Shown: in pieces, positions 688 through 32,060 of the stretch
Layout of the letters: each line of letters starts with the position of its first letter
How positions within the stretch are numbered: the first letter of the stretch is position 1
NCBI GenBank assembly: GCA_000002445.1
Contig: CM000207.1
Coordinates: 768,001-832,000, forward strand
Origin: Trypanosoma brucei
Taxonomy: Eukaryota
DNA length: 64,000 nt
Reading direction: 5' to 3'
Made by a program: the position numbers and the translations under genes
Notes under the pieces: model-generated
Told to the model about the DNA's origin: nothing
What the model saw: only the letters and a program-made list of their open reading frames with translations
Databases searched by the model: none

Positions 688-3600
688 ATGCTGGTCGCCA
701 CAGCGTCCGTTACATCTCATGGCTGTGCCACCGATCTTTCGACGAAGACAAGATCAGCGTCCGTCACGATGGAAGGTGAAAGTGTTAGGAGTGACGAACG
801 GCATCACGTTAACGTGAGGGGAGATGAGAGCGAAGGTGTTAGTGTGTCTCTACTTTCCACACGTCACACGGTTCACGCTCTCAACAAGCAGTCATCCAGC
901 GCGTGGGTGACGACAAAGCTAGTAGAGCAATGTGTCACGGGCTACCGAGATGCACTCTTGGTCATTCGGGAATATGGACACCGGGTTGAGGGAGAAGGTC
1001 TGCATCTGCGGTTGCAACTTGGTGAGGCCCACCGCGAACTTCAAAGTAAAGGTGGGCTGGGGGCCTCTGTTACGCATATTGTCGAGAAGCAGCTCTCGGA
1101 ACATTTGATGCAGAACGGTAACGCGAACATCTCTCCCCGTTCCGAGTCCTTACGACACCGTCAGATTTTGCGCGACATGAAACACCTAGCACACGGGCTT
1201 TTAATACCTCTCGATATCTTCCGGCATCAGCACAACTGGCTGTTAGTGCAAGAGGATGTCCAACTAAGTCTGGCCGATCGACTCCGACACTACCGTGTGG
1301 TGGTGCGACAGGCTCCACCACCCGCTTTAGTGGAACGCCTCTGGTTTGACCTCTGGGCGCTTTTGGGCGCAGCGTGGCGGCAGCGCGGACGGCTTCTAGG
1401 AGTTTATGCGGAGGGTGTTCTTCCAGTTAACGTGGATGGTGGCACCGCAGTTGTTCCACCGTCAGTTTTGAGCCCCCCATCGCACCGTGAAGCCTATCGT
1501 GAGGGGCAACGTGAATACCGCTCCAAGCGGATGGAGGGATCGCCGGCCAGTGGGGTACCGGCGGATGCCGACGATTGTTACGCATTTGGCCCAATTACGC
1601 CACATCGAGTGGGAATCATGCCATCGCGCCACTACACCATCCGATGGCCACTCATGTCAATTTTACGTTCCCTGCGTGTGCGTGTGGCTGGCAAGAAACC
1701 GGGGTCGGAGTCCGGAATAAGGATTGCAATGTCAGCAGGGTCACTAGGGGAACCGAAGGATGACCACCAAGAGGAATCTGACAAATGTGCACAGACCTCT
1801 CGTGGGTCTGATTTCTTTTCTCCGAGGGTGTCTTGCGGGTCCGTTGGTGGTAGCTCACAGGAATATCCTGCTGCCTTTTTTGACCTATCGTCAGAAGATA
1901 TCGAAACGTGCCGTGTGCCATACTTGTCCCCAGAGTGCTTCACACAAAGGTTTCGTAGCGCTGGATGCCATTCGAGTGAACCAGTGGAAGTTTCTGTGTC
2001 TCATCGGTTCTCTGATGATGTCTGGAACATAGCCGTCCTCACCATAGAATTTATGTTGACTAACTTTCCCCTCGAACAAAGTTGCTGCCACCACGCGAGT
2101 TACCAAGGTTTCAGAACAAGTTTTATATTCGATGATATTATTGAGTTGCTCGTAGTATATCACAACATACCGCTTAGAGCCGCGCAAAACTTCGTTTACG
2201 CAGCATTGCACGAGCTTTCACTGCTCGTGTCGGGGGTTGAACAAGTTGGTGTAGATTCAGGTGAAGGTAGCGTACTGACTCCGCGCTGCCTGGCCCAGCA
2301 ATGGAAGGACTATTTAAGTGAAACGTGTAGTAACAGTACTGTGCTGCGGGAGGTGGTGACAAACGGTTTGCTATGGCTGCGCCGTGAGCGGTGGGAGGTT
2401 TTTCAAACTGTTCACTCTCTTGACGATTATAAGGAGGGAGAGTGTGGCAACGGGAGCAACGGGTGTATCGGGGGTGACGACAACGAGAAGAATACCAGCA
2501 GCCGGTACGGGGACGGTGCAGCGAAGAGGGTATTGGACACTTTGGTAAGCCCTTATCTGCCGCTGAATCCGGCTCTCTGTTCCGCTGTGTTACGGGAAGG
2601 CGGGGAGGCATCTCAAGGCTCACTTAGCATCACGGGTTCGATTCAGCAGTGGTGTGAAAAAGAGGATGCGTTTTGGCATACGCAATTTGATGATCTACAA
2701 TCGACGGTGCAGAAATGGAGGAAGTGTATTGAACGCTACACGGTGCTCGGTGGTATGAGCGGTAAAGGTAATGAGGCGAGGCAAACTGTTCTTTTCAAGC
2801 GTCTCGTTCGGGTCGTACGATCGGTGCTGCAGCTTCAACTCGAGAAGGTAAAGGCTGGTGATCAAACCAAGACCATTCTCCTAAGCAGTGACAGGGAATC
2901 CCGCCGTATGCAGCGGGGGGAGGTCCTGAGTCATGCTGTGCAACAGGAGCTTTTGCGTGGCTTAACGGAGCGTGGTGCTCTTTTTATGCACATTTTGGAT
3001 CTTGTGCCGAATCAATTCGTACCCACCAATTCCACCGTTGCAGGTGATGCCCTCACCAGGGTGGTTCCGTTTTGCGGTGTCTTTATGTCCATCTCGCACA
3101 CTCTTTCGCAGCTGGAGAAGGACATGGCTCAACTTACTGAGTTGTCACCAGCGTCGACGGCGCCCTTCCGTGCCCTTGACACCATTTTGGGAGTGGAGTA
3201 CAACGCTGCACGTGTGACACACTTATCGGCCTGTCAGTTGAATGAGGAGGCGGATGAGGGGAAATTGAGTATGTTAGAAAATGTTAGGTCTGTCATTCGT
3301 CAGTTAGACCTCGACCTGAAGATGCAGGTGAAACTGGTGAAAGATATGAGGTGTCTGATGTGCACCAGCGTTCCCGTGGAAACGCGTGCTTCGCTCGTGC
3401 GACAGTACTTACTTCGCACCCAGGCGGCACATGGGACTGTAGAGGTTCCTATTCCAGCTACTCTTCGTGGTGAGATATGGGCCGTCCTTCTGTTGGTGTC
3501 CCCGGAACCTGAGGAACGAGCGTCTAGATATTTTGCGCTGGACACGGCGCGACCAACGCCGTGCAACCGTCAGTTATCTGTCGACATCCCACGTTGTCAT

Positions 3601-4881
3601 CAGTATCACCCACTACTGGCATCATCAGATGGTCACGAACGAATGTGGCGTATCATCAAGGCGTGGTTATTGCTGAATCCCGAGCTGTCGTACTGGCAGG
3701 GGTTGGATAGCGTCTGTGCTGTTCTGCTTGCCGCGTCTTTCCACGATGAGCCTCTTGTTTTAGCTCAGTTGCAGGAACTGACGCACAACTACATACCGCA
3801 CGACTTGGCATCCAGAGAGACAGATCTGCCACAGAGTATGGCTGGAAAGTTCCAGTTGTTCGCTGTGCTTCTGCGTTACTGTGATCCGCAACTTGCCACT
3901 CACCTCCTCGACACAGTTGAGTGCGGTCCCGAACTATTTGCGGTTGGATGGTTTCTCGCGCTTTTTGCACACGGCTTACCAATGGCGAAAGTGTTTCTTT
4001 TGTGGGATTTCCTCTTCGTGTATGCTGCCGTTTTCCCACACTGCCTTGCTGTCCTTTGCCTTGCCGTTCTGTTGCAGCACCGCGAGCAGTTGATGTCGCA
4101 CGACTTCTCTGTATGTGTGGGCGCGCTCAGCCGTGCGAGGGATATTGAAGTGCGGATCGTGTTGTATAACGCCTCACTATTGCTGCGAAGCACACCGCCG
4201 CTAGTCGGGGGACCGTGCGCTCCCACAGGCCAGCCCCACAGTAGCAGCAACTCCGTGCCACGCATGAGGGTGCGGACACTTCTTCAGGCATTTCGCCGCG
4301 TCCCTTTCGATGAAACGCCGTATGGGGAAGAGTGGACCCGCAACGGATTATTCCTCGTGGATCTACGGGAAACGAGGGGTGGTACAGCAAGCCTTGAGCT
4401 GGAAGGAGAGGAGCAGATGTGGTCAACGCAGCGCGAAACGGAGGAGCGTGTTGTTGGAGCTCTGCTCTTTCCACTTGTGTCTTGCCAGCAGGACGGTGCG
4501 GAAATAGATGTGATGCAGCAGGAGCTTCAAGGGCGGTTGGCTGTGCAATTGGCTTCTGAACTCTTATCACAAACACGTAACATCGCTTTAGCAGCCGTTC
4601 CACCGGTACCGTCGTCGGGGTCGCGACCGAGCGCAGGGATGAGACAGTGTGAAGAAAATCCTGCCGCTGGAACACAGCCAGAGGTCATTGCGAAACACTC
4701 AGAATGTCCTCATATTGTACTTTTTACACATTCTTCGAACCTATGTGAGGTGGCCACTTCAGAGTTGCTTGCGAGGGAATTAATGCGTTGCGGTGCACCA
4801 CATGTTTCAATTTTGCTTGGCGGCTTTGTACAGTTGAAGCGGGAGGCAGCTGATCTCATTGTGGAAATGGTCCCTACTTGA
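688..4881 (+). CDS. TBCK-like protein: degenerate protein-kinase-like N-terminal region, then a TBC/RabGAP domain, then a C-terminal rhodanese-like domain without catalytic Cys
   Basis: 1397-aa ATG-initiated ORF; an alternative start is the in-frame ATG at 769. The TBC domain shows an IxxDxxR-like motif ('LSVDIPR') followed by 'NPELSYWQGLDSVCAVLL', which matches the TBC YxQ-finger block. An N-terminal stretch 'HRFSDDVWNIAVLTIEFM' resembles kinase subdomain IX in an otherwise degenerate kinase fold. The C-terminus 'CPHIVLFTHSSNLCEVA...ILLGGF' looks like rhodanese. A polypyrimidine tract at ~405-485 lies upstream. Confidence 0.7.
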   Translation: MLVATASVTSHGCATDLSTKTRSASVTMEGESVRSDERHHVNVRGDESEGVSVSLLSTRHTVHALNKQSSSAWVTTKLVEQCVTGYRDALLVIREYGHRVEGEGLHLRLQLGEAHRELQSKGGLGASVTHIVEKQLSEHLMQNGNANISPRSESLRHRQILRDMKHLAHGLLIPLDIFRHQHNWLLVQEDVQLSLADRLRHYRVVVRQAPPPALVERLWFDLWALLGAAWRQRGRLLGVYAEGVLPVNVDGGTAVVPPSVLSPPSHREAYREGQREYRSKRMEGSPASGVPADADDCYAFGPITPHRVGIMPSRHYTIRWPLMSILRSLRVRVAGKKPGSESGIRIAMSAGSLGEPKDDHQEESDKCAQTSRGSDFFSPRVSCGSVGGSSQEYPAAFFDLSSEDIETCRVPYLSPECFTQRFRSAGCHSSEPVEVSVSHRFSDDVWNIAVLTIEFMLTNFPLEQSCCHHASYQGFRTSFIFDDIIELLVVYHNIPLRAAQNFVYAALHELSLLVSGVEQVGVDSGEGSVLTPRCLAQQWKDYLSETCSNSTVLREVVTNGLLWLRRERWEVFQTVHSLDDYKEGECGNGSNGCIGGDDNEKNTSSRYGDGAAKRVLDTLVSPYLPLNPALCSAVLREGGEASQGSLSITGSIQQWCEKEDAFWHTQFDDLQSTVQKWRKCIERYTVLGGMSGKGNEARQTVLFKRLVRVVRSVLQLQLEKVKAGDQTKTILLSSDRESRRMQRGEVLSHAVQQELLRGLTERGALFMHILDLVPNQFVPTNSTVAGDALTRVVPFCGVFMSISHTLSQLEKDMAQLTELSPASTAPFRALDTILGVEYNAARVTHLSACQLNEEADEGKLSMLENVRSVIRQLDLDLKMQVKLVKDMRCLMCTSVPVETRASLVRQYLLRTQAAHGTVEVPIPATLRGEIWAVLLLVSPEPEERASRYFALDTARPTPCNRQLSVDIPRCHQYHPLLASSDGHERMWRIIKAWLLLNPELSYWQGLDSVCAVLLAASFHDEPLVLAQLQELTHNYIPHDLASRETDLPQSMAGKFQLFAVLLRYCDPQLATHLLDTVECGPELFAVGWFLALFAHGLPMAKVFLLWDFLFVYAAVFPHCLAVLCLAVLLQHREQLMSHDFSVCVGALSRARDIEVRIVLYNASLLLRSTPPLVGGPCAPTGQPHSSSNSVPRMRVRTLLQAFRRVPFDETPYGEEWTRNGLFLVDLRETRGGTASLELEGEEQMWSTQRETEERVVGALLFPLVSCQQDGAEIDVMQQELQGRLAVQLASELLSQTRNIALAAVPPVPSSGSRPSAGMRQCEENPAAGTQPEVIAKHSECPHIVLFTHSSNLCEVATSELLARELMRCGAPHVSILLGGFVQLKREAADLIVEMVPT

Positions 4882-5413
4882 GTGTGCCTGCGTTACCCTT
4901 TTCTGTTCCTTTTCTTTTTCTTTTCAAAGACTGCTTGTTTTGTTGCTCCGCTTGATTTTTAATTTCGAACGAAGAAGAGCGTGCACTGTTGACTGTTTCC
5001 GCCGATACGCCCCCCCCCTACTATATCTGTTTCTTCATTTGCATTTGTTGTACTCTGTTTCCACGCGTATCGCGCCACATTTAATCCTATGGTCGCAGGT
5101 GCCTCCTTGCTTTACTTTCTCACCTCTGTGCACGTTTAATTTCTTTGTGTTTGTAACCCCTATGTTGCCACTTTTACACCAAATGACGGGATCCCCCACG
5201 CCGATTCCGGCTCTTTCCCCACCCTCGGTTGGGGCGCCCTATCCATATTTCCGTTCCTACCTCTTCTCCCTTTCCAAACGACTGCGCCTGAGATGACATA
5301 CATCTGCAGCAAAAGTAAAGGACACCGCTTAGCTATTTGAACGAGGGAGGATACAGGGAACACGTTTCGTGGAGAGGGGGAGGCAAGAGTGTGCTCGTTT
5401 GGAGCATAAAGTG

Positions 5414-6550
5414 ATGAAAATTACCTGTACGGATGAAAGTGGCAATGTGTACTCAGCGGAATTGGATCCAACCGCGATGGTTGAGGACCTTTCCGTTCTT
5501 GTAGAGGTGGAGATTGGTATACCCGTGGAGGAACAGTTGCTTATGGCACCTACCGGTGCGATATTGCGTCTGGATGAAACGTTTGGGGCCCAGGGTATAA
5601 CAACTGACTGTTGTGTCACGGTGAGACGCCAGGTGTTGGGAGGAGGCTTGAAACGGCCAGCGGAAGAGCGACCAGACAGGATACCGGAAGTGCAGGCCAG
5701 TGAAGAACGATCTCACATACTGGAGCTGTACGCAACCGAACTGATGTCTGACCAGGATCAGTTGCAGCAGCTCGTGTCGCCGGAGTTTGACGAAACAGAC
5801 CCGGCCATACAGAGCAGGATATATGAGGAAATTAGTAAGCGCAACGTGGAAGAGAACTTAGCAAATGCGCTTGAGTTTGCACCAGAGGCGTTCACCCGTG
5901 TAAGCATGCTCCACGTCACGGTTGAGATTAATAAGGTAAAGGTGAAGGCCTTGGTTGATTGCGGCGCGCAAACGTCCGTCGTGAGTGCCGCCACCGCCGA
6001 GCGCTGCGGCATCAATTGGTTGGTTGACAAGAGGGCAGTGGGTACCGTTCACGGTGTTGGTGAGCAGCGTTCGCTGGGTCGAATTCATCTTACGCAGGCA
6101 AACCTAGGTGGGTTGTTTATTCCCATCTCTCTAGTTGTACTAGAAAGTGAAACTTTTGATCTCATTATTGGACTAGACCAGATGAAAAAGCACCGCATGA
6201 TCATTGACCTCAAGGACGATTGCCTGCGTGTGGGTGGTACCGCTATACCATTTCTCAGTGACTCAGAAGTATCGGAAGAACCGCATAGGGGGACACCATT
6301 TGTGCTTGGAGGTGGCGATGGCAACGAGGACAACAATGCCGCAGATGTTCCGACGGCTGGCGCAAATCAGGGCACGGCAGCGAAAAGAAGTACGGCACCT
6401 TCCGGCCCTAACATCAGCTCCGCTGAAAAGGAGCAGGCAATCGAGACATTCGTTTCTCTAACCCACCTCGAAAGACAGCAGGCCATTGCACTCCTCGAGG
6501 CTGTGAACTGGAACCCACATGCGGCCATGTCACTTCTGATGGAGGAGTGA
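5414..6550 (+). CDS. DDI1: DNA-damage-inducible protein 1 (DDI1)-like: ubiquitin-like domain, retropepsin-type aspartyl protease domain, C-terminal UBA domain
   Basis: Track ORF 5369 starts with GTG; the first ATG is at 5414 ('MKITCTDESGNVY...', a UBL-like N-terminus). The retropepsin core reads 'VKALVDCGAQTSVVS...LIIGLDQMKKHRMIIDL'. The C-terminal UBA reads 'EKEQAIETFVSLTHLERQQAIALLEAVNWNPHAAMSLLME'. Confidence 0.85.
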   Translation: MKITCTDESGNVYSAELDPTAMVEDLSVLVEVEIGIPVEEQLLMAPTGAILRLDETFGAQGITTDCCVTVRRQVLGGGLKRPAEERPDRIPEVQASEERSHILELYATELMSDQDQLQQLVSPEFDETDPAIQSRIYEEISKRNVEENLANALEFAPEAFTRVSMLHVTVEINKVKVKALVDCGAQTSVVSAATAERCGINWLVDKRAVGTVHGVGEQRSLGRIHLTQANLGGLFIPISLVVLESETFDLIIGLDQMKKHRMIIDLKDDCLRVGGTAIPFLSDSEVSEEPHRGTPFVLGGGDGNEDNNAADVPTAGANQGTAAKRSTAPSGPNISSAEKEQAIETFVSLTHLERQQAIALLEAVNWNPHAAMSLLMEE

Positions 6551-9125: not shown

Positions 9126-10421
9126 ATGTCACTCAGGTCCACAATTCAGACGCATTTTACCGTACCCACGCGACATCATAGCACGCGGCAGCGCTCTTTT
9201 AGTGGCATGTTTTCTGCACCTGCTTCAACCACAGCAGGGGCTCCAACACCGATTCGGCGGTTTCCACTCAACAACACGCAAGCGGAACCTTCGCTTGGCT
9301 CACCATGTGAACTGGACTTCCAAAAGGGTGCTTTAACTGGCGATTGTGTGTGCGCCGACCGCCAACTGGAGTGGTTACGGCGAAATCTTGTGAAGTCGGA
9401 GAAGAGGGATTTTCACGGCATGAGCAAGGTGAAGATGCCGGAAGGGAACCCATCATGGCCACGTTACCATTTTCCGCTGCGTAGCTGCTCTTACATTTAT
9501 GATCCTCCCAACGAATCTAAGCTTGCGTTTATTACTCCAGAGAACTACTGCAAACTCTGCTGTGAGCCAGTTGAGTTGCCCATTCGCCATTGCGCATGGT
9601 GGGATCATGTGACACGAATGGCGGGCCTCCGCTTGACTGCTATTTATCCACGGCGTTGGGATCCATCTGCTCTGATGCAAGAGCTGTGGGCAGGGAAGTT
9701 TCCCGTGAGGTTTATGAATACCGAACGGCCACATCCTTACCTGCGCCCATCACATGACGGTCCGTCGTGGAGCGATTTACGTCAATGCTATGTTTTTGAA
9801 AGGGAAGCGGTTGTACGACGGGGCGAATTAAGAGCAATTTTGCACATACTATCCACAGATGTTAGTGGCGGTAGGCGGGTGCTGCGGGAATCTTTAGTGC
9901 TCTCACCCGACGGAAGCTACGCAGCAAACGTTGGTGAGCGCACTTTCCGGGCCTTCATCAGCAGACACATCACACCCTTGCTACCACCCATGGGCCCTGA
10001 GCCAACTACAAGGTTGCAACAGCGTTGCTGGGGCCGAAAAAACCTCGAGGCAATGTTTGATCTTTTGGGAGTAGAGGCGTTACAGAGACTTAGTGGTGTT
10101 GAGGAGGTGGCAGTAACCAAGAATGAGAAGGCTACTGTGATGCGCCAAATAGTTTATGAACTGACAACCGTGTTGTCCGAATGCGATGCTAGAGAGCTGT
10201 CGGCGAGCAACGAACATGCCAATGAAGGTGCGCATAGCGTAAAAATCGCGAAAGATGAAACTCACATGCAAGTCCGGCTGTTGGTGGAGTTGGCACTGCA
10301 GCGTTTGTCACATGAACTGATCCATCTTCACATGATGTTGCTCATAGAACGTGTGTGGAATGCGTATGCGAACCTGGGATACCCAGGTGAAGAAGCGTTT
10401 GAGGAAAGCACCTTTTGCTGA
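9126..10421 (+). CDS. conserved hypothetical protein, possible mitochondrial presequence
   Basis: ATG-initiated 431-aa ORF, same strand and spacing as its neighbours. The N-terminus 'MSLRSTIQTHFTVPTRHHSTRQRSF' is Arg/Ser/Thr-rich without acidic residues. No family recognised by eye. Confidence 0.5.
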   Translation: MSLRSTIQTHFTVPTRHHSTRQRSFSGMFSAPASTTAGAPTPIRRFPLNNTQAEPSLGSPCELDFQKGALTGDCVCADRQLEWLRRNLVKSEKRDFHGMSKVKMPEGNPSWPRYHFPLRSCSYIYDPPNESKLAFITPENYCKLCCEPVELPIRHCAWWDHVTRMAGLRLTAIYPRRWDPSALMQELWAGKFPVRFMNTERPHPYLRPSHDGPSWSDLRQCYVFEREAVVRRGELRAILHILSTDVSGGRRVLRESLVLSPDGSYAANVGERTFRAFISRHITPLLPPMGPEPTTRLQQRCWGRKNLEAMFDLLGVEALQRLSGVEEVAVTKNEKATVMRQIVYELTTVLSECDARELSASNEHANEGAHSVKIAKDETHMQVRLLVELALQRLSHELIHLHMMLLIERVWNAYANLGYPGEEAFEESTFC

Positions 10422-10955
10422 GGTTTATACTCGGAGGAACGAGTGTAGCGCGTCCGAGAATGTATTAATCGTTGTTTCACCTCGCATCAAGGGCTACTTT
10501 GTGGATACTGCTGCGAAAGCAGCGCCTGTTTTAAAAGTTAAGGTGCGGACCAAGGTGCCGTCCAATCGTTGTGCTGCCAAGGTTTGATAGTTTATGTCAA
10601 TTTCTTTCCTCAACAAGAGCTTCAAAGAAGAAGTCGCTTTGTTTTCAAAGGCCGTGACACCCGACAACGAAAGTTGGGTGGTGGACGGTTTGTTGCAGAG
10701 GTGTTAAACGAAGCATGCTTGTTCTCTGCTGTTTCTCTCTCTCTCTCATGTCATTACTGCAGTCCCCATCCGTGGCGCGTGCAGAAAAAAAGGATCTGTG
10801 GAAAAATGAATGACCAGGACCGTTTTCACTCTCCCCTCTGGTGTGTGAATTACCCAATCGAGTTATGCTATTCTTCTAGCTGTCTAACACATCCCCTCTC
10901 ATCTAATTATTGCTGTTGTTTTCAATGCACATATCTTTCCCTCAAATTGTGTGGC

Positions 10956-12971
10956 ATGAACGAAGATACAGTTGTTTCTTGGAGAAACTCCTTTTGTACG
11001 ATGGAAAACGCAAGGAATCTGGAGCAAACGATCCCACCAGTTAGTGTCCCTTGTCAAGCTGAAGACTCTGCTCATCCCTCGCTGCAGCAGGGCTCATTGT
11101 TCCCCTCTCGATTTTCTCGGTGCGTGAGTCCAGGCTCCATGCCGCTCCAACCAGATGCAGTTGTAGACGACCAGGCGGAGCCCACTTCGCCGCCGATATC
11201 ACACAACCAAAATGATGCCACATCGAACCCGAATGCTCCTGACGCATCCGTAGCACCGCGACCGGTGGAAGCCTGTGCCATAAGCACATTGGTTAATGAC
11301 GATTCCTCTACCTTCCATCGGTCGCTGGATGCGCCTGAAGTTGTAAAGTCACCCGCGCTAACAGTAAGGAGACGTAAGATTGTCGCGGGAAGTAATTCCT
11401 TCCGCGGCTCAACTCAACTTGCCCAGAACTCTGTCAGTGATTTTAGCCTATCCAGGCAACACGTCGACGATTTTTCACTTACCGATGCGGAGAGCAAACA
11501 TACTAATGGAATGTCCTTCAGCTCTCATGTTGCTGCGATCCCCATGCATGCGGTTGCGAGCTTGCTGTTCACAACACAGAGGAGGTCATTGATGGGACAT
11601 TACTTCCACACGTGGTGGAGGTGCGCCTTGCTCGCTCGCCAAATTGGGGCTAATTTCAGAAGTCCCGAATCATCAAGAGAGGCTGCATCGACAGATTTGA
11701 GGAAGGCAGTGAGTGTCGCGCAAGCGAACCAGTTGTTAGGCAGGACGGAGATCCCTCACTTGAACCGGCCCGCGCTAATGTCATGCGACAGTTCCGTAAA
11801 CGCCTCGCCATTCACTTCGCCCGTAAAAAGAGGGATCTCAACGGGAAAGTGTGTACCCAGCTGCTGCGCCCCGTCGTCGAGAGCTTCGTCTGCTCACCGG
11901 AGCCCTGGAATGCTGCTGGTCCCATTTGGCCCCACGAGAGGCCAGTCCCCAGCCGTGCGGGGGCTTCAAAGGTTGAGCATAGGAAATTTGCAATGTTCAA
12001 GAGATTTCTGCACGGGTATGACAAGGGAGACCCGATCCGACAGTGGAAGTAGCGGCACCGACCAACGCCCACCAGCGATTTCAGTAGATATGCTCCACGT
12101 TTATACGAGCATATTAACGGAAGAGGAGTGGGGGGCTCGCACCACAGTTATGCGAGAAGAGGCTTCCGAACGCTACAAAATTCAAACGCTCACAAGTGAG
12201 GTATTAGATCGAGATTTTAAGGAAGCTTTGTGTAGGAGGAGGGCTGTCATGCTTCGTGGATGCCCGCAATCGGATGGTTTGCGAAGAGCAAAAGGTGGCG
12301 GTAAAAGGGAAGCTTGTGTTGACCGCCACCACTTACCGGGGCGGCCGGAGGGTTCGAGTGAGCGTCAAGGGTGTGCTCCGTTACCAAACTCAGCGGCCGC
12401 GATATGCGTGCTGCCGGAAGCTGCAAATGCTCCGAAAAGCGAAAGTAAAGATGACCCCTTAAACGGCCTCATGGCGTGTACTTCTCCTCCATCGTCTCAC
12501 GGCTGCAACCCACTAACAGCCGGGCCCGTAGGCAATACAGCGGGTGTGTCTCATGGAATACTACCCAACTCGTGCGCTTCTTTAGCAAGCAGTGGCGCTC
12601 ACGCAGAGAACAGCATCTCCATTTGCATATCCAACTGTTCCGAAAACACGGTGGAATCAGGTCGACCTCACAATCCCTCCGAAGCCCCAAAAGGGGACAC
12701 AACAGAGCCGATCAGGGAGCCGTTGGGATCGTCCAAACCCCAAAAAGATGATACGACCGCTGCAGACTGCACGGAAGCCAAAAAATTATTGGACGACTCA
12801 TTGGAGCTTGACCTTCAGAGGTATTTGCAGCTGGATTTAGTGGATAGGGAACGTGAGGATAGGCTTCGCATCGTAAAGAAGTACCGCAATGGTCTACAGC
12901 AACTGTTAAACATTTTCTTTGGGAAGAAGCACTGTCGAACACGTCCTAATGATACTAGTAATCAAAATTAA
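10956..12971 (+). CDS. hypothetical Ser/Pro-rich protein
   Basis: Track ORF 10569 begins with TTG and its first ~390 nt translate through pyrimidine tracts (CTCTCTCTC at ~10735, polyY at ~10880-10950), so they are probably UTR or splice-signal sequence. Candidate starts are the ATG at 10956 ('MNEDTVV...') or 10806. The remainder is a long open frame with S/P/A-rich low-complexity segments. Confidence 0.5.
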   Translation: MNEDTVVSWRNSFCTMENARNLEQTIPPVSVPCQAEDSAHPSLQQGSLFPSRFSRCVSPGSMPLQPDAVVDDQAEPTSPPISHNQNDATSNPNAPDASVAPRPVEACAISTLVNDDSSTFHRSLDAPEVVKSPALTVRRRKIVAGSNSFRGSTQLAQNSVSDFSLSRQHVDDFSLTDAESKHTNGMSFSSHVAAIPMHAVASLLFTTQRRSLMGHYFHTWWRCALLARQIGANFRSPESSREAASTDLRKAVSVAQANQLLGRTEIPHLNRPALMSCDSSVNASPFTSPVKRGISTGKCVPSCCAPSSRASSAHRSPGMLLVPFGPTRGQSPAVRGLQRLSIGNLQCSRDFCTGMTRETRSDSGSSGTDQRPPAISVDMLHVYTSILTEEEWGARTTVMREEASERYKIQTLTSEVLDRDFKEALCRRRAVMLRGCPQSDGLRRAKGGGKREACVDRHHLPGRPEGSSERQGCAPLPNSAAAICVLPEAANAPKSESKDDPLNGLMACTSPPSSHGCNPLTAGPVGNTAGVSHGILPNSCASLASSGAHAENSISICISNCSENTVESGRPHNPSEAPKGDTTEPIREPLGSSKPQKDDTTAADCTEAKKLLDDSLELDLQRYLQLDLVDREREDRLRIVKKYRNGLQQLLNIFFGKKHCRTRPNDTSNQN

Positions 12972-15198: not shown

Positions 15199-17706
15199 AT
15201 GTCCATGCTCTGTTTGGCACAGTGGGCACTACTGTTGGTGTTGTGTCTGGTTGGTTGTTGCTGCACCGTGAGTGGAGGATCAGAAGTTTTGGCCGTAGAC
15301 ATTGGAGCTGACTGGGCGAAGGGTGCCACACGTGTGATTGGAGGCAGCACCGCCCCGCGGGCCAGCATAGTACTCAATGATCAGACAAACCGTAAGAGCC
15401 CACAATGTATCGCCTTTCGTATTGTGCCCAACGCCGGAAACGACACGTTGCGCAGCGTCGAGCGCTTATTTGCAGAGGAGGCTCGTTCTTTGGAACCACG
15501 CTTCCCCCAGCAGTCCATTTGCGGCCCTTCGCTACTCGCAGGACTGATCGTTTCGAAGGAAATCTCTGCGGGACAGAAACATCACGAACAAACAGGTAAT
15601 CAAAGGTCGGAACGTGAAGGTGTCATCTCTTTTAGTGATACCGATAGGTTTACGTATGTGGTTGTGCCGCAAATTCGCCGCAAGTCTGCGGTGGTTCGTA
15701 TCACTCCGGGTGGTAGCAGCGAAGGTACAACCACCGCACCAATAGAGTTCACTGTGGAGGAGTTGATTGGAATGATTTTGGGACACATGAAACGGTCTGC
15801 GGAACGTTCGCTGGATGGTGCGCCGGTGCGACACCTTGTGTTGGTTGTGCCGACCTCCTCCAGTTTGGCGTACCGTCAAGCCATGGTTGACGCTGCTGCC
15901 GTGGTGGGTTTGCGAACTATCCGCCTCGTGCATGGTTCTGCAGCAGCGGCAACGCAGCTTGCACACCTCAATACAGAGACTTTATTTCGTGGTCATCCCT
16001 CCAACACAACTGAGAGAAAATATGCAATGATATACGACATGGGTAGTTCCAAAACCGAGGTGGCCGTGTTTCGTTTTACCCCTGCTACCGCACGTGACGA
16101 CTTTGGGACAGTTACTCTGGTGGCTTCCGCTACAAACCATACGCTAGGAGGCAGGTCGTTCGACCGCTGTCTTGCACGTTATGTGGAGAGAAATTTGTTC
16201 CCCGCCGCGAAGCCAACACCGGTCACGCCAGTACTAGACAGAAAACCGGTTACAGCCACCACTCGGCGCGCAGTGGTTAGCCTGCTACGCGCCGTCAACG
16301 CGGCGAGGGAGCGGTTGTCGGTAAATCAAAATGTTCCTTTTGTTGTGCCCGGCGTTCGTGAAGACGGGGGCGACTTCATCGCAAATATTTCTCGTGCGCA
16401 GTTCGAAGAAGCCTGTGGTGAATTGTTTAACGAGGCAGTACGGCTTCGTGACCACGCCATTACGCAGACGAATGGTACGGTGCGGTCACTCAATGAGTTG
16501 GTGCGCCTTGAACTAATTGGTGGTGCCACACGTATGCCAAAACTGCAGGAACGGTTGAGTGAAGGTTACGGTAAACCGGCGGATAGAACTCTTAACAGTG
16601 ATGAGGCAGTTGTCTCAGGAGCGGCACTGATGATCCACGACACCCTCAGCCGAATTCGCGTTATGGAGTCCTTGACAAATGATATCTACTTCACTGCTTC
16701 ACCCCCGATTAAGGAATCAAATGAAACCAAGCCTCATCGTAACCTTCTGTTCGCCAAGCGGAACACCACCGTTCCGGCAGCCCGGTCGCTAATATTTCCA
16801 AACCGCACAGCCGACTTCACACTAACGCTTCATGACGGTAACGGACGCTACTCGCGTTCTGTGCTAGTGAGTGGTGTGAGTGGGAGCATGAATGCTGCGC
16901 GCGAGAAGGAAAAGGAAATGAGTACCGAAAGAGCGAACAAAGTTACCAAAACTTCTGTGGTCCTCCGCCAGGTAGAGGTGGTGGTGGAGGTGGTGCTCAG
17001 TAGAAGCGGGCTGCCCTATGTGGCCGGTTCGTACGTCCACGCTAGATACGCGGAGCAGGTGACTGTGCTACCTTCGGTGAAAAAGACTGGGGATAACGAA
17101 ACTACGGCACAAAAGGACGAGAACAACAATCCGTCTCAAAACGAAACTGACACGACGAGTACCATTAGCCCCGGGAGGGAAAAGAGAAGTGGGGGTTCTC
17201 CGTCTGCAGCAAACTCTAATAGCGCGAAAATGCAAAACTCCAGAGCAGATGAAGCAAAAGAGAATGAGACCCCAACCGGTGACGAAATCCTGGAAGTCAA
17301 TGAGAGGGATGCAGGAACTGGTGGGAAGAATAACAATGCAAAAGTGAGGCATTTTGCACTTCGCTTTCCGTTGAACAACACTCCAGCACCTTCCTCAACT
17401 TCGCAAGGCGGTGTGAACATGAACAAAGAGGAGGCCCTTGCAGCGCGGAACCGCCTTCGTGCACTTCAGCGCCTTGACGACGAGCGGTTGCGGCGTAGTG
17501 GTCTGCTTAATGACGTCGAGTCCCTGCTCCTTCATTACAAGTCCCTTGATGCCTGGTCTGCGCAGCAAAGCGATGATAACTCGAATGACTGGCGGTCCGT
17601 TGTGAAGGACGTATCACGGTGGTTTGAAGAAGTTGGGGGCGACGTTAACGTGACAGAGTTGCAGAAGCAATATCAACGTCTGAAGGACCTAAAGCTCGGT
17701 GAGTGA
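15199..17706 (+). CDS. ER-lumenal large Hsp70-family chaperone (GRP170/Lhs1/HYOU1-like)
   Basis: ATG start. The N-terminal 'MSMLCLAQWALLLVLCLVGCCC' is hydrophobic and signal-peptide-like. Hsp70 ATPase signatures: 'VLAVDIGADWAKGAT' (phosphate-1), 'YDMGSSKTEVAVFRF' (phosphate-2) and 'ELIGGATRMPKLQERL...NSDEAVVSGAALM' (adenosine motif). The extended charged C-terminal half is typical of Hsp110/GRP170. Length is 835 aa. Confidence 0.85.
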   Translation: MSMLCLAQWALLLVLCLVGCCCTVSGGSEVLAVDIGADWAKGATRVIGGSTAPRASIVLNDQTNRKSPQCIAFRIVPNAGNDTLRSVERLFAEEARSLEPRFPQQSICGPSLLAGLIVSKEISAGQKHHEQTGNQRSEREGVISFSDTDRFTYVVVPQIRRKSAVVRITPGGSSEGTTTAPIEFTVEELIGMILGHMKRSAERSLDGAPVRHLVLVVPTSSSLAYRQAMVDAAAVVGLRTIRLVHGSAAAATQLAHLNTETLFRGHPSNTTERKYAMIYDMGSSKTEVAVFRFTPATARDDFGTVTLVASATNHTLGGRSFDRCLARYVERNLFPAAKPTPVTPVLDRKPVTATTRRAVVSLLRAVNAARERLSVNQNVPFVVPGVREDGGDFIANISRAQFEEACGELFNEAVRLRDHAITQTNGTVRSLNELVRLELIGGATRMPKLQERLSEGYGKPADRTLNSDEAVVSGAALMIHDTLSRIRVMESLTNDIYFTASPPIKESNETKPHRNLLFAKRNTTVPAARSLIFPNRTADFTLTLHDGNGRYSRSVLVSGVSGSMNAAREKEKEMSTERANKVTKTSVVLRQVEVVVEVVLSRSGLPYVAGSYVHARYAEQVTVLPSVKKTGDNETTAQKDENNNPSQNETDTTSTISPGREKRSGGSPSAANSNSAKMQNSRADEAKENETPTGDEILEVNERDAGTGGKNNNAKVRHFALRFPLNNTPAPSSTSQGGVNMNKEEALAARNRLRALQRLDDERLRRSGLLNDVESLLLHYKSLDAWSAQQSDDNSNDWRSVVKDVSRWFEEVGGDVNVTELQKQYQRLKDLKLGE

Positions 17707-18574: not shown

Positions 18575-20008
18575 ATGCTTCGTCCATCCTTTTGCAGATG
18601 TCTTCCCGTGCTGAACTGCACGCTGAGCGCTCCTCAATGTGCTGCTGCGATTGACCGTTGCACACCGGTTGTTTACTCTTCACTTCCCAACGGATGTCGT
18701 GTGGCCACCGAATATTTGCCAAATTGTCAGTTTGCCACCGTTGGGGTGTGGATTGACGCAGGCAGTCGCTTCGAGGATATTAACAACAACGGCGTTGCGC
18801 ACTTTCTTGAACACATGAACTTCAAAGGCACTGCAAAGTACTCCAAGCGTGCCGTGGAAGATCTCTTCGAGCATAGGGGGGCCCACTTCAATGCATACAC
18901 TTCGCGTGACCGAACAGCATATTACGTGAAGGCGTTCAAATATGATGTGGAGAAAATGATTGATGTTGTCTCGGATTTACTGCAAAACGGCAGATACGAC
19001 CCAAGCGATGTCGAGTTGGAGAGGCCGACAATCCTAGCCGAGATGCGGGAGGTGGAGGAGCTGGTGGATGAAGTGCTCATGGATAACCTCCATCAGGCAG
19101 CTTATGACCCGGCACACTGCGGGCTTCCGCTCACTATTCTAGGCCCTGTGGAAAACATTTCCTCCCGCATAAACCGTGACATGATACAGGAGTTTGTTCG
19201 GGTGCACTACACCGGCCCGCGCATGTCTTTCATTAGTTCCGGTGGCATCCATCCAGAAGAAGCACATAGGCTTGCCGAGAAGTTCTTTGGAAACCTCCCT
19301 GCAGCGAACAACTCCCCACTGCTGCAGTCACAATACCGGGGTGGTTACACCGTGATGTGGAACGAACAAATGGCCACGGCAAATACCGCTTTCGCGTATC
19401 CTATATGCGGGGCCATACACGACGACAGCTACGCACTACAGTTAGTTCATAACGTTATTGGGCAAGTGCGTGAAGGACAACATGACCAATTTGCTCATCA
19501 GCGACTGAACCCGCGGCTCCCGTGGGAAAAGTTGTCAAACCTGGTCCAGCTGCGACCTTTCTATACTCCATACAAAGAGACTAGTCTCCTTGGGTATCAG
19601 TTAGTTACTATGCGCACGGCAGTCGCTGACGCCAACGGCGGTGTTCAGCGAGATGAGAGCCAGACTGTGTTGCTGGATCACATGCTAAAGTTGTTTAATG
19701 AGCTGTCTACCAAAGCTGTTGACGCTGCACTCCTCGAGGAGGCAAAAAGTGAGTATAAGTCATCGGTTATGATGATGCGAGACAGCACAACAAATAGCGC
19801 GGAGGACTTGGGTCGGCAGATGATTCACCTTGGCCGACGCGTGCCTCTGCGGGAGGTGTTCGAGCGAGTGGATGCCGTCACTCCAGCAGTGTTTCGTGAC
19901 ACATTAGCGAAGTACGTACAAGCGGTTCAACCTACAGTTTCGTACATTGGTTCGGCCTCCGCTGTCCCTCGATTTGACGCCCTCACACAAGTAAAGCACA
20001 TACTTTGA
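18575..20008 (+). CDS. M16 metallopeptidase, mitochondrial processing peptidase beta-subunit-like
   Basis: ATG start, 477 aa. The inverted zinc-binding motif HxxEH is present as 'HFLEHMNFKGT' in an M16-like context ('NGVAHFLEHMNFKGTAKYSKRAVEDLFEHRGAHFNAYTSRDRTAYY'). The N-terminus 'MLRPSFCRCLPVLN' is presequence-like. Confidence 0.85.
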   Translation: MLRPSFCRCLPVLNCTLSAPQCAAAIDRCTPVVYSSLPNGCRVATEYLPNCQFATVGVWIDAGSRFEDINNNGVAHFLEHMNFKGTAKYSKRAVEDLFEHRGAHFNAYTSRDRTAYYVKAFKYDVEKMIDVVSDLLQNGRYDPSDVELERPTILAEMREVEELVDEVLMDNLHQAAYDPAHCGLPLTILGPVENISSRINRDMIQEFVRVHYTGPRMSFISSGGIHPEEAHRLAEKFFGNLPAANNSPLLQSQYRGGYTVMWNEQMATANTAFAYPICGAIHDDSYALQLVHNVIGQVREGQHDQFAHQRLNPRLPWEKLSNLVQLRPFYTPYKETSLLGYQLVTMRTAVADANGGVQRDESQTVLLDHMLKLFNELSTKAVDAALLEEAKSEYKSSVMMMRDSTTNSAEDLGRQMIHLGRRVPLREVFERVDAVTPAVFRDTLAKYVQAVQPTVSYIGSASAVPRFDALTQVKHIL

Positions 20009-20839: not shown

Positions 20840-23800
20840 ATGAAGCGGGATGAACTGTTTGCTGCTTTGCAGGAAATACCGTGGGTTCCATGCCCGGAAA
20901 GTGAGGGTCGTCCATGCTACCGAGCAGCAGAAGCATTTCACTGCACATTTTGTGCATACACTGTTTGCGCTCGGTGTTATGACGCCATTCCGTCGTCCCT
21001 TCTCTCATTGGCAACCACAACAACTAGTGGCGGCACCGGCGGTGAAGGTGGCGCTGCGACAAACTCAGAAAAGAGTCTTGCCGACAGGACACCCACCCAA
21101 GCGTTTACTCCAAACTCACGCGGGAGTGACACACCTAACAGTGCCGACGACTTCATGAAACCCCGCTGTTTTTTGTGTCGCTCGGGGGTTCTCGAGAAGG
21201 AATCTGTGCCCGTGTTCGAATGGACATGTGAGGGTCCACGTCCTCCACGTCGACTCACTCGAGGTCAAGGGGCATCGTATGATGTGGATGTGGTTCAGCG
21301 TTACTACACCATGAAGGAGCAACGTGAGAAGAGAGCCCAATCGCAAGCACCGCTAACGGCTCAGTTTCTCGGCACAGAACCGTCGCCCACCGAGTTTGGT
21401 GGCAACATCGGTGTGCCTCCGGAGGCATCTCGCACTGGAGTGTTGGGTCGGCGGCCGTTCTGTGAGGAGGGTTGTAGTTTTTCGTGTGTTGTGCAGAACC
21501 CAAGGTTGGAGCAATCGCTAGTATGGTGTGGCGTGAATCGGCAGCTGCGGGAGTCCCACCCCTCCATCACAGGGGAAGAGACCATTACACCGTTGCACAC
21601 GATTCGCTGTCCACCTACTCTCCCAGGGTTACCTCCGCATAGGCTCCGGGTGCACATTCCATATGGCTCGTATGGCATTCATAAGATCCATGCAGTGGCG
21701 CTGTACGTCACCGAGGACATCTACCGGAGAGCTACGGCGAGGTCGGGGTCGCCTCGACCTGTTGTCAAATCACCAGGAGGTCGACGGATGGAACAGGGAC
21801 ACCCACAGCGAGATGGGCAGTTGATGGCGGTTAAGGAGCTGCCACGCAACACCGTACGCCCGTTGCTCGTTGTCGACGTACTGCATCGTACCGCCACCAG
21901 CGATCCGGTGAGGAATCTTTTGCCAACGCAATGGCTTCCGGAGCATATGCGACGTCCACCTAGCAGAATCTGCTCGCCTAGAAGAGAAAATAGTATCACG
22001 GAGACGGCGGGGTGTGTTGGCTCAGGTGTGACAAAGGGGAACGAAGGTGAGGGTCAGAATAATGGAACTGAAACTAAAGGCAACGCAGAGCCTCCTGTTA
22101 TGGGGGAAGGTGAACCCCACTTGACGTGGCCAGAGGGGATCCGATGCGAGGAACTGTTGCTAGCGGTTGACTATCTGCTACAGGGCCGTTCCGTAGCTGT
22201 GTACGGAATTGCATCAAAATACTTTTTTCTTCACCACGTTGCGCAATCCGCCGAGTTAAGAAATTTGGGAGTAGCCTTTGTGGATGGCTACCGCTCTTCT
22301 GCAAACCGTGTGACTCGGCAGCTGCGGGAAATTAGCAAGCAATTGCAGGAACAGCGTCATATCGTAGAAAAGGAGGTGCTGCGCAACCTCGTTTTTCGTG
22401 GAGGGGACTGTGATCCGTTTCTGCGTATCAGTCGTTCGCAAGCACCGTCGCGGGATGAATGCGGAAACCCGTCTGATCAATGTTATTTGGTGGTTTCCTC
22501 CTCAACATCCTCGGAGTCGTCGCGAAGTCGCTCTTACCGCTCCCCTGTGAGAGACGTTTCGGTCGCGATGATGGGCGGTTCCACCGAAAAAAGGCGAGAA
22601 AATATGGGACTAAAAGTGGGAGATCCTGGTTGTTGTGACTTAACTGCAGCCAAAACATTAAAGGCGACTACCCCACAGCGCAAGGAGAGCATGACTGTGT
22701 GTTCCCCCGCACCCATTACTATGAAGCGAGAACGGTCCGTGATGCTTGTGCAGGATGGTGGGCACTCTGATATTAAGAGAACTACTCAGCAAACTGCGCA
22801 GGGTTCGAAAAGACGGTGCGGAGAAAAAGTGTGTGACGCTGCCGGAACGGGTGGGTGGCGCCAAACTCATCCTGAGGCTATGGAAACCAGCAGAAAAGTG
22901 CGGTTGTGGCTGCGACGGTATTACCTGAGCGAGGTATCAGACTGGAATTACAGCGTACCTTTATATGAAACTCCTTGTGAGCGGCGATGCCGGGAAACGG
23001 AAACGGCCGTAACGTCGGTTCCGCTATCGGAGAGTGAAAACACTTGCCTGCAACCACGGTATACGGTTTCATCTCCAGACATCATGCGCCGGCTTCGTGT
23101 CGAATGCGGCGCTCCCCTCCGTTCGTGCGTGCAGTGGAAGTCGCTTCCATCCTACACAGCTCAGATGCTCACGGGGGGACTTGCTGCACAATCTGCCAAT
23201 CCTCCAGTTCATTATAGCGACTATGTTCCGAGGTTGATCCTAGTAGTGCATGGTATAGACGAACTCGACCCACCACTTCTGGTAGAGCTTCAGAACATTG
23301 CACGTGACCATCCCAATCGTGTAATGTTGCTATGCTCATTCGACGACCCAAACTGGGCCATGTCAAACAGTGCGGCGCAGTTGGAGCCGTTTCGATTGGC
23401 GTATGTACACCTCCGCTCGATGTTGCTCCCACGGGTGCATGAAATGGCATGTGTTAAAAGTCTCACGTTGCTCACAGACCTTGAGGCAGCAGCAGCAGGG
23501 GGGAAAAGGTTTGGTCATCACGGGTTAAGAGGAAGTCTTGGCCCTGGGACCTCTTTACCACTTCAAGACACCATTAGACGTATACTTTTTAGTCTTCCCG
23601 CCACGTTTACTGATGTCTTACGATGCATGATTGAGCGACAGGAAGCGTCGGGCGAAAATGTCTTCGTTCCCATGAGTCTCCACCAGCAACACTTCGACGA
23701 TCGAGGAATGATGATTTCAGTGGGCCGCCTCAGAGCGATTGAACGGGAACTAACATCCAATCGGCTGGCTGTGTTTGATGCAGCAGAAAATAAATTGATG

Positions 23801-31344: not shown

Positions 31345-32060
31345 AAAACAAACTTCTCTCTTCTGTTAGAGGCAGTGCCCCTTCTTCGTCCCTTCGGGAT
31401 AAGAGCAGCGTGTGCAATAATGACATCTTGTTGTATCCGCGTGTGTCGAGGTGTGTGTGTTGAGGTGACGAAGGGTGAAGAAGAAAAGGAGGGGAAGTTT
31501 AGTTTGGTCGATGAAGTGTTGTGCGAGCACTCCTGATCCAAGTCAGTTGTGGGAAAGGAGTGAAGGGGCGGGGGGGGGAGTTGTTTGAGATTTTACTTCT
31601 CCGTTGCCTTAAACGATATTCATAGTAGTAGTAGCGTGCAGAGGAAGCTTCGCTGAGAGGAGCGACATCGCCACGCGTATACTGCGTTCATATTGCCGTA
31701 GTGAAACCGTGAAAGAGTCGACCGGAAGGTGTAAGAGAAGGATAGGGTGCCGGTCGTATTCGGATCTTGTATGGGGCCCCACATATCTTTTTTTGGTTGT
31801 GGTGGCTATGTCAAAAATTTGGGAAAGCTCTTTTTATTCTACGAGTTTTTCATTTCTACTCCTTTTTTTGTTCCTAACGTCAAGGTTGTATCGAAGTGGA
31901 AGTGGTTGAGCGGTCGATGCGTTGCCATAATCGTTGGGTTTGGTGCTAATTGGATTTACAAAGGGTAGTGAGGAAATAAGGCGTGCCGGTGCAGTGCGTT
32001 AAGGTAAGAAAATACACACCGAGTTTGGGTGCGGGTGTGTAGGGAAGTAAGAGGGTGGTG

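What the first reader, a model, noticed from the sequence alone, without database searches (positions are those of the whole stretch)
688..4881. TBCK-type tri-domain protein (pseudokinase, TBC RabGAP, inactive rhodanese) in a kinetoplastid
The 1397-aa ORF combines three things in one polypeptide. The first is a clear TBC/RabGAP core: an IxxDxxR-like 'LSVDIPR' and a YxQ block 'NPELSYWQGLDSVCAVLL'. The second is an N-terminal region with kinase-like remnants but degenerate catalytic motifs. The third is a C-terminal rhodanese-like fold that lacks the active-site Cys. This is the architecture of metazoan TBCK. Its presence in an excavate would argue that the fusion is ancient. The protein is ~500 aa longer than human TBCK, so it carries lineage-specific insertions.
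Basis: partly seen in the sequence, partly recalled or inferred. Interest (0 to 1): 0.5.

Follow-up and report, generated by a model that had tools for sequence, protein, structure and literature searches.

The report
Trypanosome orthologue of the TBCK RabGAP

Summary
The 1397-aa ORF at 688..4881 (+) is real. It is identical to T. b. brucei TREU927 XP_803741.1 / UniProt Q38FA4, annotated 'GTPase activating protein, putative'.

Pfam finds only the TBC domain (925-1136, E 6e-32), in this protein and in all orthologues. HMMER profiles of the N-terminus find no kinase anywhere. More sensitive tests support all three domains:
- **TBC domain:** a kinetoplastid-only profile hits annotated metazoan TBCKs at E 1e-57 to 7e-63. 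Other TBC families score about 1e-13. The motif VDIPRCHQY is shared, and both catalytic fingers (R969, Q1004) are invariant.

The kinetoplastid TBCK clade ('TBC-G', not 'TBC-K') was already reported in 2013 and 2017. What is new is only that the accessory domains persist cryptically. Interest is low to moderate.

The parts
688..4881 (+). Complete ORF of 1397 aa plus stop codon. It is the T. brucei TBCK (TBC-G clade) orthologue.
   Evidence: The ORF is listed. It exactly matches XP_803741.1 / Q38FA4, 'GTPase activating protein, putative'. Orthologues occur across trypanosomatids.
688..1134 (+). N-terminal extension, residues 1 to about 149. It is mostly helical or low-confidence and only patchily conserved. 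Metazoan TBCK has about 37 residues before the Pfam Pkinase match begins.
   Evidence: Alignments. The AF2 model has pLDDT below 50 here. The Pfam Pkinase match in Amphiura TBCK starts at residue 42.
1135..2427 (+). Degenerate protein-kinase-like (pseudokinase) region, about residues 150-580. It carries large insertions, at roughly 250-295 and 335-395. The boundaries are approximate.
1582..1590 (+). 'AFG' (residues 299-301), proposed to occupy the position of the kinase DFG motif. The metal-binding Asp is missing.
   Evidence: F300, G301 and P302 are invariant or nearly so. The motif scan finds no DFG, HRD, VAIK or N-lobe GxGxxG, and no Lys conserved at 90% or more in 26 sequences. The positional equivalence was made by eye and is an inference.
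1918..2058 (+). Best-conserved kinase C-lobe remnant: 'PYLSPE' (APE equivalent, 411-416) through helix F 'SDDVWNIAVLTIEFML' (442-457).
   Evidence: hhalign aligns it to TBCK 'RYMAPE...SDVWSLGIIVLE'. AF2 pLDDT is 80-90 here.
2428..3399 (+). Helical linker, residues 581-904. It is about 150 aa longer than in metazoan TBCK. Its end ('VIRQLDLDLKMQVKLV') aligns with the TBCK pre-TBC helix 'IIREKDIEYQFHRVVL'.
   Evidence: The BLASTP alignment extends upstream of the TBC domain. There is only a weak DUF7032 hit, E 0.012.
3400..4215 (+). TBC RabGAP domain. The profile envelope is 905-1176 and the Pfam match is 925-1136.
3592..3594 (+). Arg finger R969, in 'VDIPR' (the IxxDxxR motif).
   Evidence: Invariant in 16 orthologues and in TBCKs. 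It aligns with the R of TBC1D1 'IDLGR'.
3697..3699 (+). Gln finger Q1004, in 'YWQG' (the YxQ motif).
   Evidence: Invariant. It aligns with the Q of TBC1D1 'YCQG'.
4255..4878 (+). Rhodanese-like domain, about residues 1190-1397, predicted to be catalytically inactive.
4486..4692 (+). Lineage-specific insertion inside the rhodanese domain, about residues 1267-1335. It contains a long conserved helix ('ELLxQxxNxAMAAxPP').
   Evidence: This stretch is unaligned to TBCK in the extended hhalign. The model places a helix at residues 1275-1296. Conservation is shown.
4726..4746 (+). Loop at the position of the rhodanese active site ('THSSNLC', 1347-1353). It has no conserved Cys and no CX4-5R motif.
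   Evidence: The orthologue alignment shows this loop is variable, and C1353 occurs in only a few species.

Best explanation
The ORF encodes the T. brucei orthologue of TBCK, which is clade TBC-G of the TBC RabGAP family. [quoted passage not shown] About 500 extra residues are spread over an N-terminal extension, insertions in the pseudokinase, a longer linker and an insertion in the rhodanese domain. The likely mechanism is that the TBC domain is the only catalytic module. It would accelerate GTP hydrolysis on one or more Rab GTPases by inserting Arg969 and Gln1004 into the Rab active site (the dual-finger mechanism). The dead kinase and dead rhodanese folds would serve as protein-interaction or regulatory scaffolds. 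The shown steps are the domain folds, the homology to TBCK, the conservation of the two fingers and the loss of kinase and rhodanese catalytic motifs. The inferred steps are actual GAP activity, the identity of the Rab substrate, the scaffold role of the dead domains, and independence from the FERRY complex. By the account of the FERRY paper, the other FERRY subunits arose within animals.
For: TBC domain:
- Pfam gives E 5.8e-32.
- A kinetoplastid-only profile finds annotated TBCKs, which have Pkinase+TBC+Rhodanese architecture, at E 7e-63 and 1e-57. The best non-TBCK TBC domains in PDB score about 50 bits, E about 1e-13.
- BLASTP to Amphiura TBCK gives E 4e-45, with the shared motifs VDIPRCHQY and SYWQGLDS.
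- A rooted NJ tree groups kinetoplastids with TBCKs at 93% bootstrap.
- R969 and Q1004 are invariant.

Pseudokinase:
- hhalign to the TBCK N-terminus gives 83-85% probability, with controls at 20.6 or below against 51.9 for the real comparison.
- The metagenomic relative P0020 keeps 'APYLSPE' and 'DLWSIGAILLE', and it aligns to the trypanosome N-terminus at 97.4% probability over 226 columns.
- There is no GxGxxG, VAIK, HRD or DFG and no conserved Lys. This parallels human TBCK, a class I pseudokinase.

Rhodanese:
- hhalign to the TBCK rhodanese gives 95.5%, collinear.

Literature:
- TBC-G is present in kinetoplastids.
- TBC-G homologues in excavates share the kinase domain.
Against: - No sequence-to-HMM method detects the kinase or rhodanese domain. 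This holds for Pfam on 16 orthologues, on distant relatives and on a consensus, for the profile against PDB, and for the exhaustive profile search, which returned only 21 hits, none of them a TBCK or a recognisable kinase.
- The N-terminal model has low overall confidence (pLDDT 50.7). Foldseek against PDB gave no significant hit, although about 30 of the 46 weak hits were kinases.
- The hhalign N-terminal match is confident over only 41-62 columns, and the N-lobe is not convincingly aligned.
- The TBCK N-terminal profile rests on only five sequences, two of them full length.
- My tree uses NJ with only four outgroups from three TBC families.
- No TBCK structure could be compared directly, because AFDB50 was unavailable.
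- I could not confirm from the supplements that this exact gene is the published TbTBC-G.
- GAP activity and the Rab substrate are untested.
Confidence: 0.85

Rival explanations
1. Only the TBC domain is homologous to TBCK. The long N- and C-terminal regions are kinetoplastid-specific sequence with no evolutionary relation to kinase or rhodanese domains, and the motif resemblances are chance.
For: Pfam, HMMER profile and consensus searches find nothing but the TBC domain. Pairwise BLASTP to TBCK finds no match in the N- or C-terminus. The 2013 paper remarks that trypanosome TBCs lack many accessory domains.
Confidence: 0.04
2. It is a TBC1D23-type (TBC-I) protein, the other family with a TBC domain followed by a rhodanese domain, and not a TBCK.
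Confidence: 0.03
3. The three folds are present, but the architecture arose by independent fusion in Euglenozoa. A kinase-like and a rhodanese-like domain would have been joined to a TBCK-like TBC separately from the animal lineage, so it says nothing about an ancient fusion.
For: N-terminal homology specifically to TBCK, rather than to kinases in general, rests on an 83-85% hhalign match over 41-62 columns. The kinase N-lobe cannot be aligned.
Against: The domain order is identical. The post-kinase motif and the pre-TBC helix also align in order: 'EWxxYL...EVAxxGL' with 'EVYYLW..GGDL..EL..GL', and 'VIRQLDLDL' with 'IIREKDIEY'. The C-terminal domain matches the TBCK rhodanese profile at 95.5% with five collinear motifs. 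Both lineages have lost the same catalytic motifs. The literature reports kinase-bearing TBC-G in Amoebozoa and excavates.
Confidence: 0.06

Closest known systems
Metazoan TBCK (TBC1 domain-containing kinase; FERRY subunit Fy-1; clade TBC-G of Gabernet-Castello et al. 2013)
   Same: Both have the same collinear order: pseudokinase, helical linker, TBC, rhodanese-like. The TBC domain is 30-38% identical and shares the extended motifs VDIPRCHQY and SYWQGLDS. The R and Q fingers are retained in both. [quoted passage not shown]
   Different: The trypanosome protein is about 500 aa longer. The extra residues are an N-terminal extension of about 110, insertions in the pseudokinase of about 195, a linker longer by about 150, and a rhodanese insertion of about 40-70. 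Its kinase and rhodanese domains are so degenerate that Pfam and HMMER cannot see them, whereas metazoan TBCKs hit Pkinase at 1e-31 to 1e-35 and Rhodanese at 1e-5 to 1e-11. The FERRY partners are reported as animal innovations, so it probably acts outside a FERRY complex. That point was not tested here.
TBC1D23 (clade TBC-I), TBC + rhodanese, PDB 6JL7
   Different: Sequence similarity is weak, about 22 bits. TBC1D23 lacks the catalytic fingers and has no N-terminal kinase-like domain.
Canonical dual-finger TBC RabGAPs (Gyp1, TBC1D20, TBC1D1/4, RabGAP1)
   Different: The Arg-finger motif reads DIPRCHQY, whereas TBC1D1, RabGAP1 and RabGAP1L read RTFPxHxYF. The accessory domains also differ.
[not shown]
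   Same: Both have a kinase fold without nucleotide-binding or catalytic motifs.
   Different: Degeneration is far more extreme here, with large insertions in the catalytic-loop and activation-segment region. Nucleotide binding is untested.

Membership tests
TBCK / TBC-G clade | The TBC domain is phylogenetically closest to TBCK rather than to other TBC subfamilies. | tested here: met
   A kinetoplastid-only profile scores TBCKs at 214-231 bits, against about 50 bits for the best other TBCs in PDB. The NJ tree gives 93% bootstrap with four outgroups. The signature VDIPRCHQY is shared. The caveat is limited outgroup sampling. Published phylogenies place a kinetoplastid TBC in TBC-G.
TBCK / TBC-G clade | A protein-kinase-like domain lies N-terminal to the TBC domain. 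| tested here: met
   [not shown]
TBCK / TBC-G clade | A rhodanese-like domain lies C-terminal to the TBC domain. | tested here: met
   [not shown]
TBCK / TBC-G clade | The kinase domain is catalytically dead (no G-loop, VAIK, HRD or DFG). | tested here: met
   The motif scan and the conservation analysis over 26 sequences find none of these motifs, find AFG at the inferred DFG position, and find no conserved Lys. Human TBCK has the same status. The mapping of positions is by eye, and biochemistry is untested.
TBCK / TBC-G clade | The TBC Arg and Gln fingers are retained. | tested here: met
   R969 and Q1004 are invariant in all orthologues and align with the TBCK and TBC1D1 fingers.
TBCK / TBC-G clade | The rhodanese domain lacks the catalytic Cys (CX4-5R). 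| tested here: met
   The loop at 1347-1353 is variable and has no conserved Cys or Arg. Human TBCK is the same.
FERRY complex subunit (Fy-1) | Assembles with PPP1R21, C12orf4, CRYZL1 and GATD1 as a Rab5 effector. | not testable with these tools
   The FERRY paper reports the partners only in animals.
TBC1D23 / TBC-I | The TBC domain lacks the catalytic R and/or Q, and the sequence is closest to TBC1D23. | tested here: not met
   Both fingers are present. TBC1D23 scores only about 22 bits despite the structural similarity.
Active eukaryotic protein kinase (Pfam Pkinase) | Matches the Pkinase profile and has the VAIK Lys, HRD Asp and DFG Asp. | tested here: not met
   There is no Pfam hit at E of 10 or below, even for the consensus. 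The motifs are absent.

The most novel reading that the evidence does not exclude
The full TBCK architecture was already assembled, with the kinase and rhodanese domains already dead, before Euglenozoa and opisthokonts diverged. It has been kept for over a billion years in a lineage that lacks the other FERRY subunits. TBCK's core job would then be FERRY-independent: a RabGAP controlled by two dead-enzyme scaffolds. T. brucei could serve as a tractable system for working out the ancestral function of a human neurodevelopmental disease gene.
Probability: 0.4. Interest if true: 0.4.

Novelty: already known. Interest (0 to 1): 0.25.

Why it matters
TBCK is a human disease gene whose biochemical role is still unclear. 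[quoted passage not shown] This work shows that trypanosomes keep all three folds while nearly all sequence signal has eroded from two of them. That argues the dead domains are structurally required partners of the GAP domain and not relics. It also argues the architecture predates the FERRY complex. The FERRY literature traces TBCK only to 'some fungi', whereas the TBC-evolution literature and this analysis place it much deeper. For trypanosome biology the result refines the annotation of Q38FA4 from a generic 'GTPase activating protein' to a TBCK orthologue. It also corrects the impression that trypanosome TBCs lack accessory domains. The result is incremental, because the clade assignment itself was already published.

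Tried and rejected
- **Pfam scans** found only TBC domains. I scanned the protein, 16 orthologues, six more distant relatives, a profile consensus and an insert-trimmed consensus.
- **HMMER profiles against PDB** found only TBC domains with the full-length profile. The N-terminal profile found nothing even at E of 10 or below.
- **Exhaustive HMMER search** of the N-terminal profile against 1.84 billion representatives gave 21 hits. None is a TBCK, and none of those scanned carries a Pfam kinase domain.
- **Foldseek against AFDB50**, which would have allowed direct comparison with the human TBCK model, was not available on the machine.
- **Extended hhalign upstream of the APE motif** did not give a believable alignment of the kinase N-lobe. 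My by-eye mapping of the αC/β4/β5 region and the catalytic loop is therefore only an inference.
- **Supplementary tables** of the two TBC-evolution papers were not held. I could not confirm the gene identifier of the published TbTBC-G.
- **Literature search** found no paper citing this gene's accessions.
- **Antisense ORF 4127..4675** (182 aa) was considered and rejected as a real gene. It lies wholly inside the conserved coding region.
Full report
**Observation.** The window is Trypanosoma brucei. The ORF at 688..4881 (+) exists as described: 1397 aa with an ATG start. Its product is identical to T. b. brucei TREU927 XP_803741.1 / EAN76516.1 / UniProt Q38FA4, annotated 'GTPase activating protein, putative'. 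It lies first in a long run of same-strand ORFs typical of a trypanosome polycistronic unit. Full-length orthologues occur in T. congolense, T. vivax, T. cruzi, T. rangeli, T. grayi, T. theileri, Leishmania and Porcisia, at 1330-2165 aa.

Pfam finds RabGAP-TBC (925-1136, E 5.8e-32) and nothing else of significance. The same holds for all 16 aligned orthologues and for six more distant relatives. It also holds for a profile consensus, with or without the insertions. A profile of the whole family against PDB sequences hits only TBC domains. A profile of the N-terminal 586 residues hits nothing in PDB at E of 10 or below. Against 1.84 billion representative proteins that N-terminal profile finds only 21 proteins. 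None is a TBCK, and none of those scanned carries a Pfam kinase domain. By the stated criterion ('Pfam finds only the TBC domain') the interpretation would be refuted. Kinetoplastid proteins are notoriously divergent, so I went further.

**TBC domain.**
- A profile built only from kinetoplastid TBC + C-terminal sequences found its best non-kinetoplastid hits in annotated 'TBC domain-containing protein kinase-like protein' from a ctenophore (E 7e-63) and a brittle star (E 1e-57).
- Both of those proteins have Pfam Pkinase + RabGAP-TBC + Rhodanese.
- The best other TBC families with solved structures reach only about 50 bits, E about 1e-13. TBC1D23 reaches about 22 bits.
- BLASTP of the trypanosome protein against Amphiura TBCK gives 30% identity over 334 residues, E 4e-45.
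- The alignment starts upstream of the TBC domain in a shared pre-TBC helix. It includes the extended motifs VDIPRCHQY and SYWQGLDS. TBC1D1, RabGAP1 and RabGAP1L instead read RTFPxHxYF after the Arg finger.
- A neighbour-joining tree rooted with TBC1D1, RabGAP1, RabGAP1L and TBC1D8B groups the kinetoplastid sequences with TBCKs at 93% bootstrap. A euglenozoan clade (73%) is sister to the opisthokont-type TBCKs (96%). Outgroup sampling is thin.
- The catalytic Arg (R969) and Gln (Q1004) are invariant in every orthologue.

**C-terminal domain.**
- hhalign of the kinetoplastid C-terminus (1190-1397) against 27 TBCK C-termini gives 95.5% probability, E 1.4e-8.
- The relaxed alignment is collinear through all rhodanese elements: VPRMRVRTL with PRISAxDL, LFLVDLR with VVDIR, GALLFPL with GSINIP, HIVLF with the active-site strand, and HVSILLGG with RVCxLxGG.
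- There is an insertion of about 70 residues in between.
- Reversed and column-shuffled controls score at most 14.9, against 57.2 for the real comparison.
- A template-free AlphaFold model of residues 900-1397 is good, with pLDDT 77 and pTM 0.80.
- The loop at the active-site position (1347-1353) is variable and has no conserved Cys or CX4-5R motif. Human TBCK is the same.

**N-terminal domain.**
- The conserved motifs PYLSPE (411-416) and SDDVWNIAVLTIEFML (442-457) look like the kinase APE motif and helix F.
- hhalign of the kinetoplastid N-terminal profile against a small TBCK N-terminal alignment gives 85% (E 6e-6, 41 columns). With a 26-sequence profile it gives 83% over 62 columns.
- 22 shuffled or reversed controls score at most 20.6, against 51.9 for the real comparison. 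N-versus-C cross comparisons are at noise level.
- A metagenomic relative, P0020, acts as a bridge. It lies on a 37-kb contig of same-strand genes next to an RNA-ligase gene, and I take it to be euglenozoan. It keeps the more canonical 'APYLSPE' and 'DLWSIGAILLE'. It aligns to the trypanosome N-terminus at 97.4% over 226 columns.
- The AlphaFold model of residues 55-640, built from kinetoplastid sequences only and without templates, has low overall confidence (pLDDT 50.7). Its confident blocks fall at about residues 194-234 and 439-574.
- Foldseek gave no significant hit, although about 30 of the 46 weak hits were kinases.
- The region has no GxGxxG in the N-lobe, no VAIK, no HRD in a catalytic-loop position, and AFG where I infer DFG would be. 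No lysine is conserved at 90% or more across 26 sequences.
- It is therefore best described as a highly degenerate pseudokinase. This matches human TBCK, which a 2026 preprint shows to be a class I pseudokinase that binds no nucleotide.
- The N-lobe could not be aligned convincingly. My mapping of αC/β4/β5 and the catalytic loop is by eye.

**Where the extra 500 residues lie (approximate, compared with the 895-aa Amphiura TBCK).**

| Region | Extra residues |
|---|---|
| N-terminal extension | about 110 |
| Insertions in the pseudokinase (catalytic-loop and activation-segment region) | about 195 |
| Linker between pseudokinase and TBC | about 150 |
| Insertion in the rhodanese domain, including a conserved helix | about 40-70 |

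The TBC domain itself is essentially the same length.

**Mechanism.**
- The only module with intact catalytic residues is the TBC domain.
- The most likely function is dual-finger RabGAP activity, with R969 and Q1004 inserted into the Rab active site, on an unidentified Rab.
- The dead kinase and dead rhodanese folds would act as interaction or regulatory scaffolds.
- Their folds and a handful of core motifs persist while almost all other sequence has diverged. This argues for selection on structure.
- In animals TBCK is subunit Fy-1 of the Rab5-effector FERRY complex. The FERRY paper reports the other subunits only in animals and traces Fy-1 only to 'some fungi'. The trypanosome protein therefore presumably works outside such a complex. 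I did not test this.

**Comparison with the literature, and novelty.**
- Gabernet-Castello et al. (2013, PMC3655817) name the TBCK clade TBC-G; TBC-K is TBC1D24. They report TBC-G in Opisthokonta, Amoebozoa and Excavata with a shared N-terminal kinase domain, and consider it possibly ancestral to eukaryotes.
- Venkatesh et al. (2017, PMC5399786) assign a kinetoplastid TBC to TBC-G by phylogeny and note its loss in some Phytomonas.
- The family assignment and the 'ancient' inference are therefore already published. I could not read the supplementary tables to confirm the gene identifier. No paper cites this gene's accessions.
- The 2013 paper also states that trypanosome TBCs lack many accessory domains. 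The demonstration here that both accessory folds persist cryptically is a modest refinement.

**Verdict.** The feature is a divergent but recognisable member of a known, previously reported clade. I rate novelty as 'already known' and interest as low to moderate (0.25).

Noticed in passing
window 4127-4675 (- strand): A 182-aa antisense ORF (GTG start) lies entirely inside the TBC/rhodanese coding region of the main gene. It is almost certainly a by-product of the composition of the sense strand and not a gene.
   Followed up: no
window 5369-6550 (+): The next gene downstream is a DDI1-like protein, with a retroviral-type aspartyl protease domain (PF09668, E 7e-40) and a C-terminal UBA domain. 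The listed GTG start is probably upstream of the true ATG ('MKITCTDESG...').
   Followed up: partly
window 20840-23896 (+): A 1018-aa ORF has a Pfam hit to the ORC2 RecA-like domain (PF04084, E 1.6e-7, 31.3 bits against a cutoff of 25.1). Kinetoplastid ORC subunits are highly divergent, so this could be worth a separate look.
   Followed up: no
window 57000-60000: All large ORFs from 688 to 57055 are on the + strand. The last one (59895-61367, an LRR protein) is on the - strand, and cumulative GC skew turns over at about 58-60 kb. This looks like a convergent strand-switch region between two polycistronic units. ARAGORN finds no tRNA genes anywhere in the window.
   Followed up: partly
window 54419-57055 (+) and 38268-43094 (+): Other recognisable genes include a Slo/BK-type calcium-activated potassium channel (Ion_trans_2 + RCK + BK_channel_a) and a 1608-aa protein with a CEP76 peptidase-like domain. 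Further along are a ThiF-family E1-like enzyme (32055-33464), a DEAD-box helicase (45720-46934), an HSP70-like protein (15199-17706) and an M16 peptidase (18575-20008). Several large ORFs have no Pfam hit: 9126-10421, 10569-12971, 25742-28837 and 33870-37919.
   Followed up: no
[not shown]
   Followed up: no
L001 3001-6546 (ENA ERZ21831265 ctg75120l): P0020, a 1181-aa metagenomic relative, has more canonical kinase C-lobe motifs than any trypanosomatid sequence. Its neighbours are same-strand, apparently intronless genes, including an RNA ligase with a faint T4_Rnl2_C hit, histone-deacetylase fragments and an Ariadne-type RBR ligase. I take it to be a deep-branching euglenozoan, which would make it useful as a bridge sequence.
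   Followed up: partly
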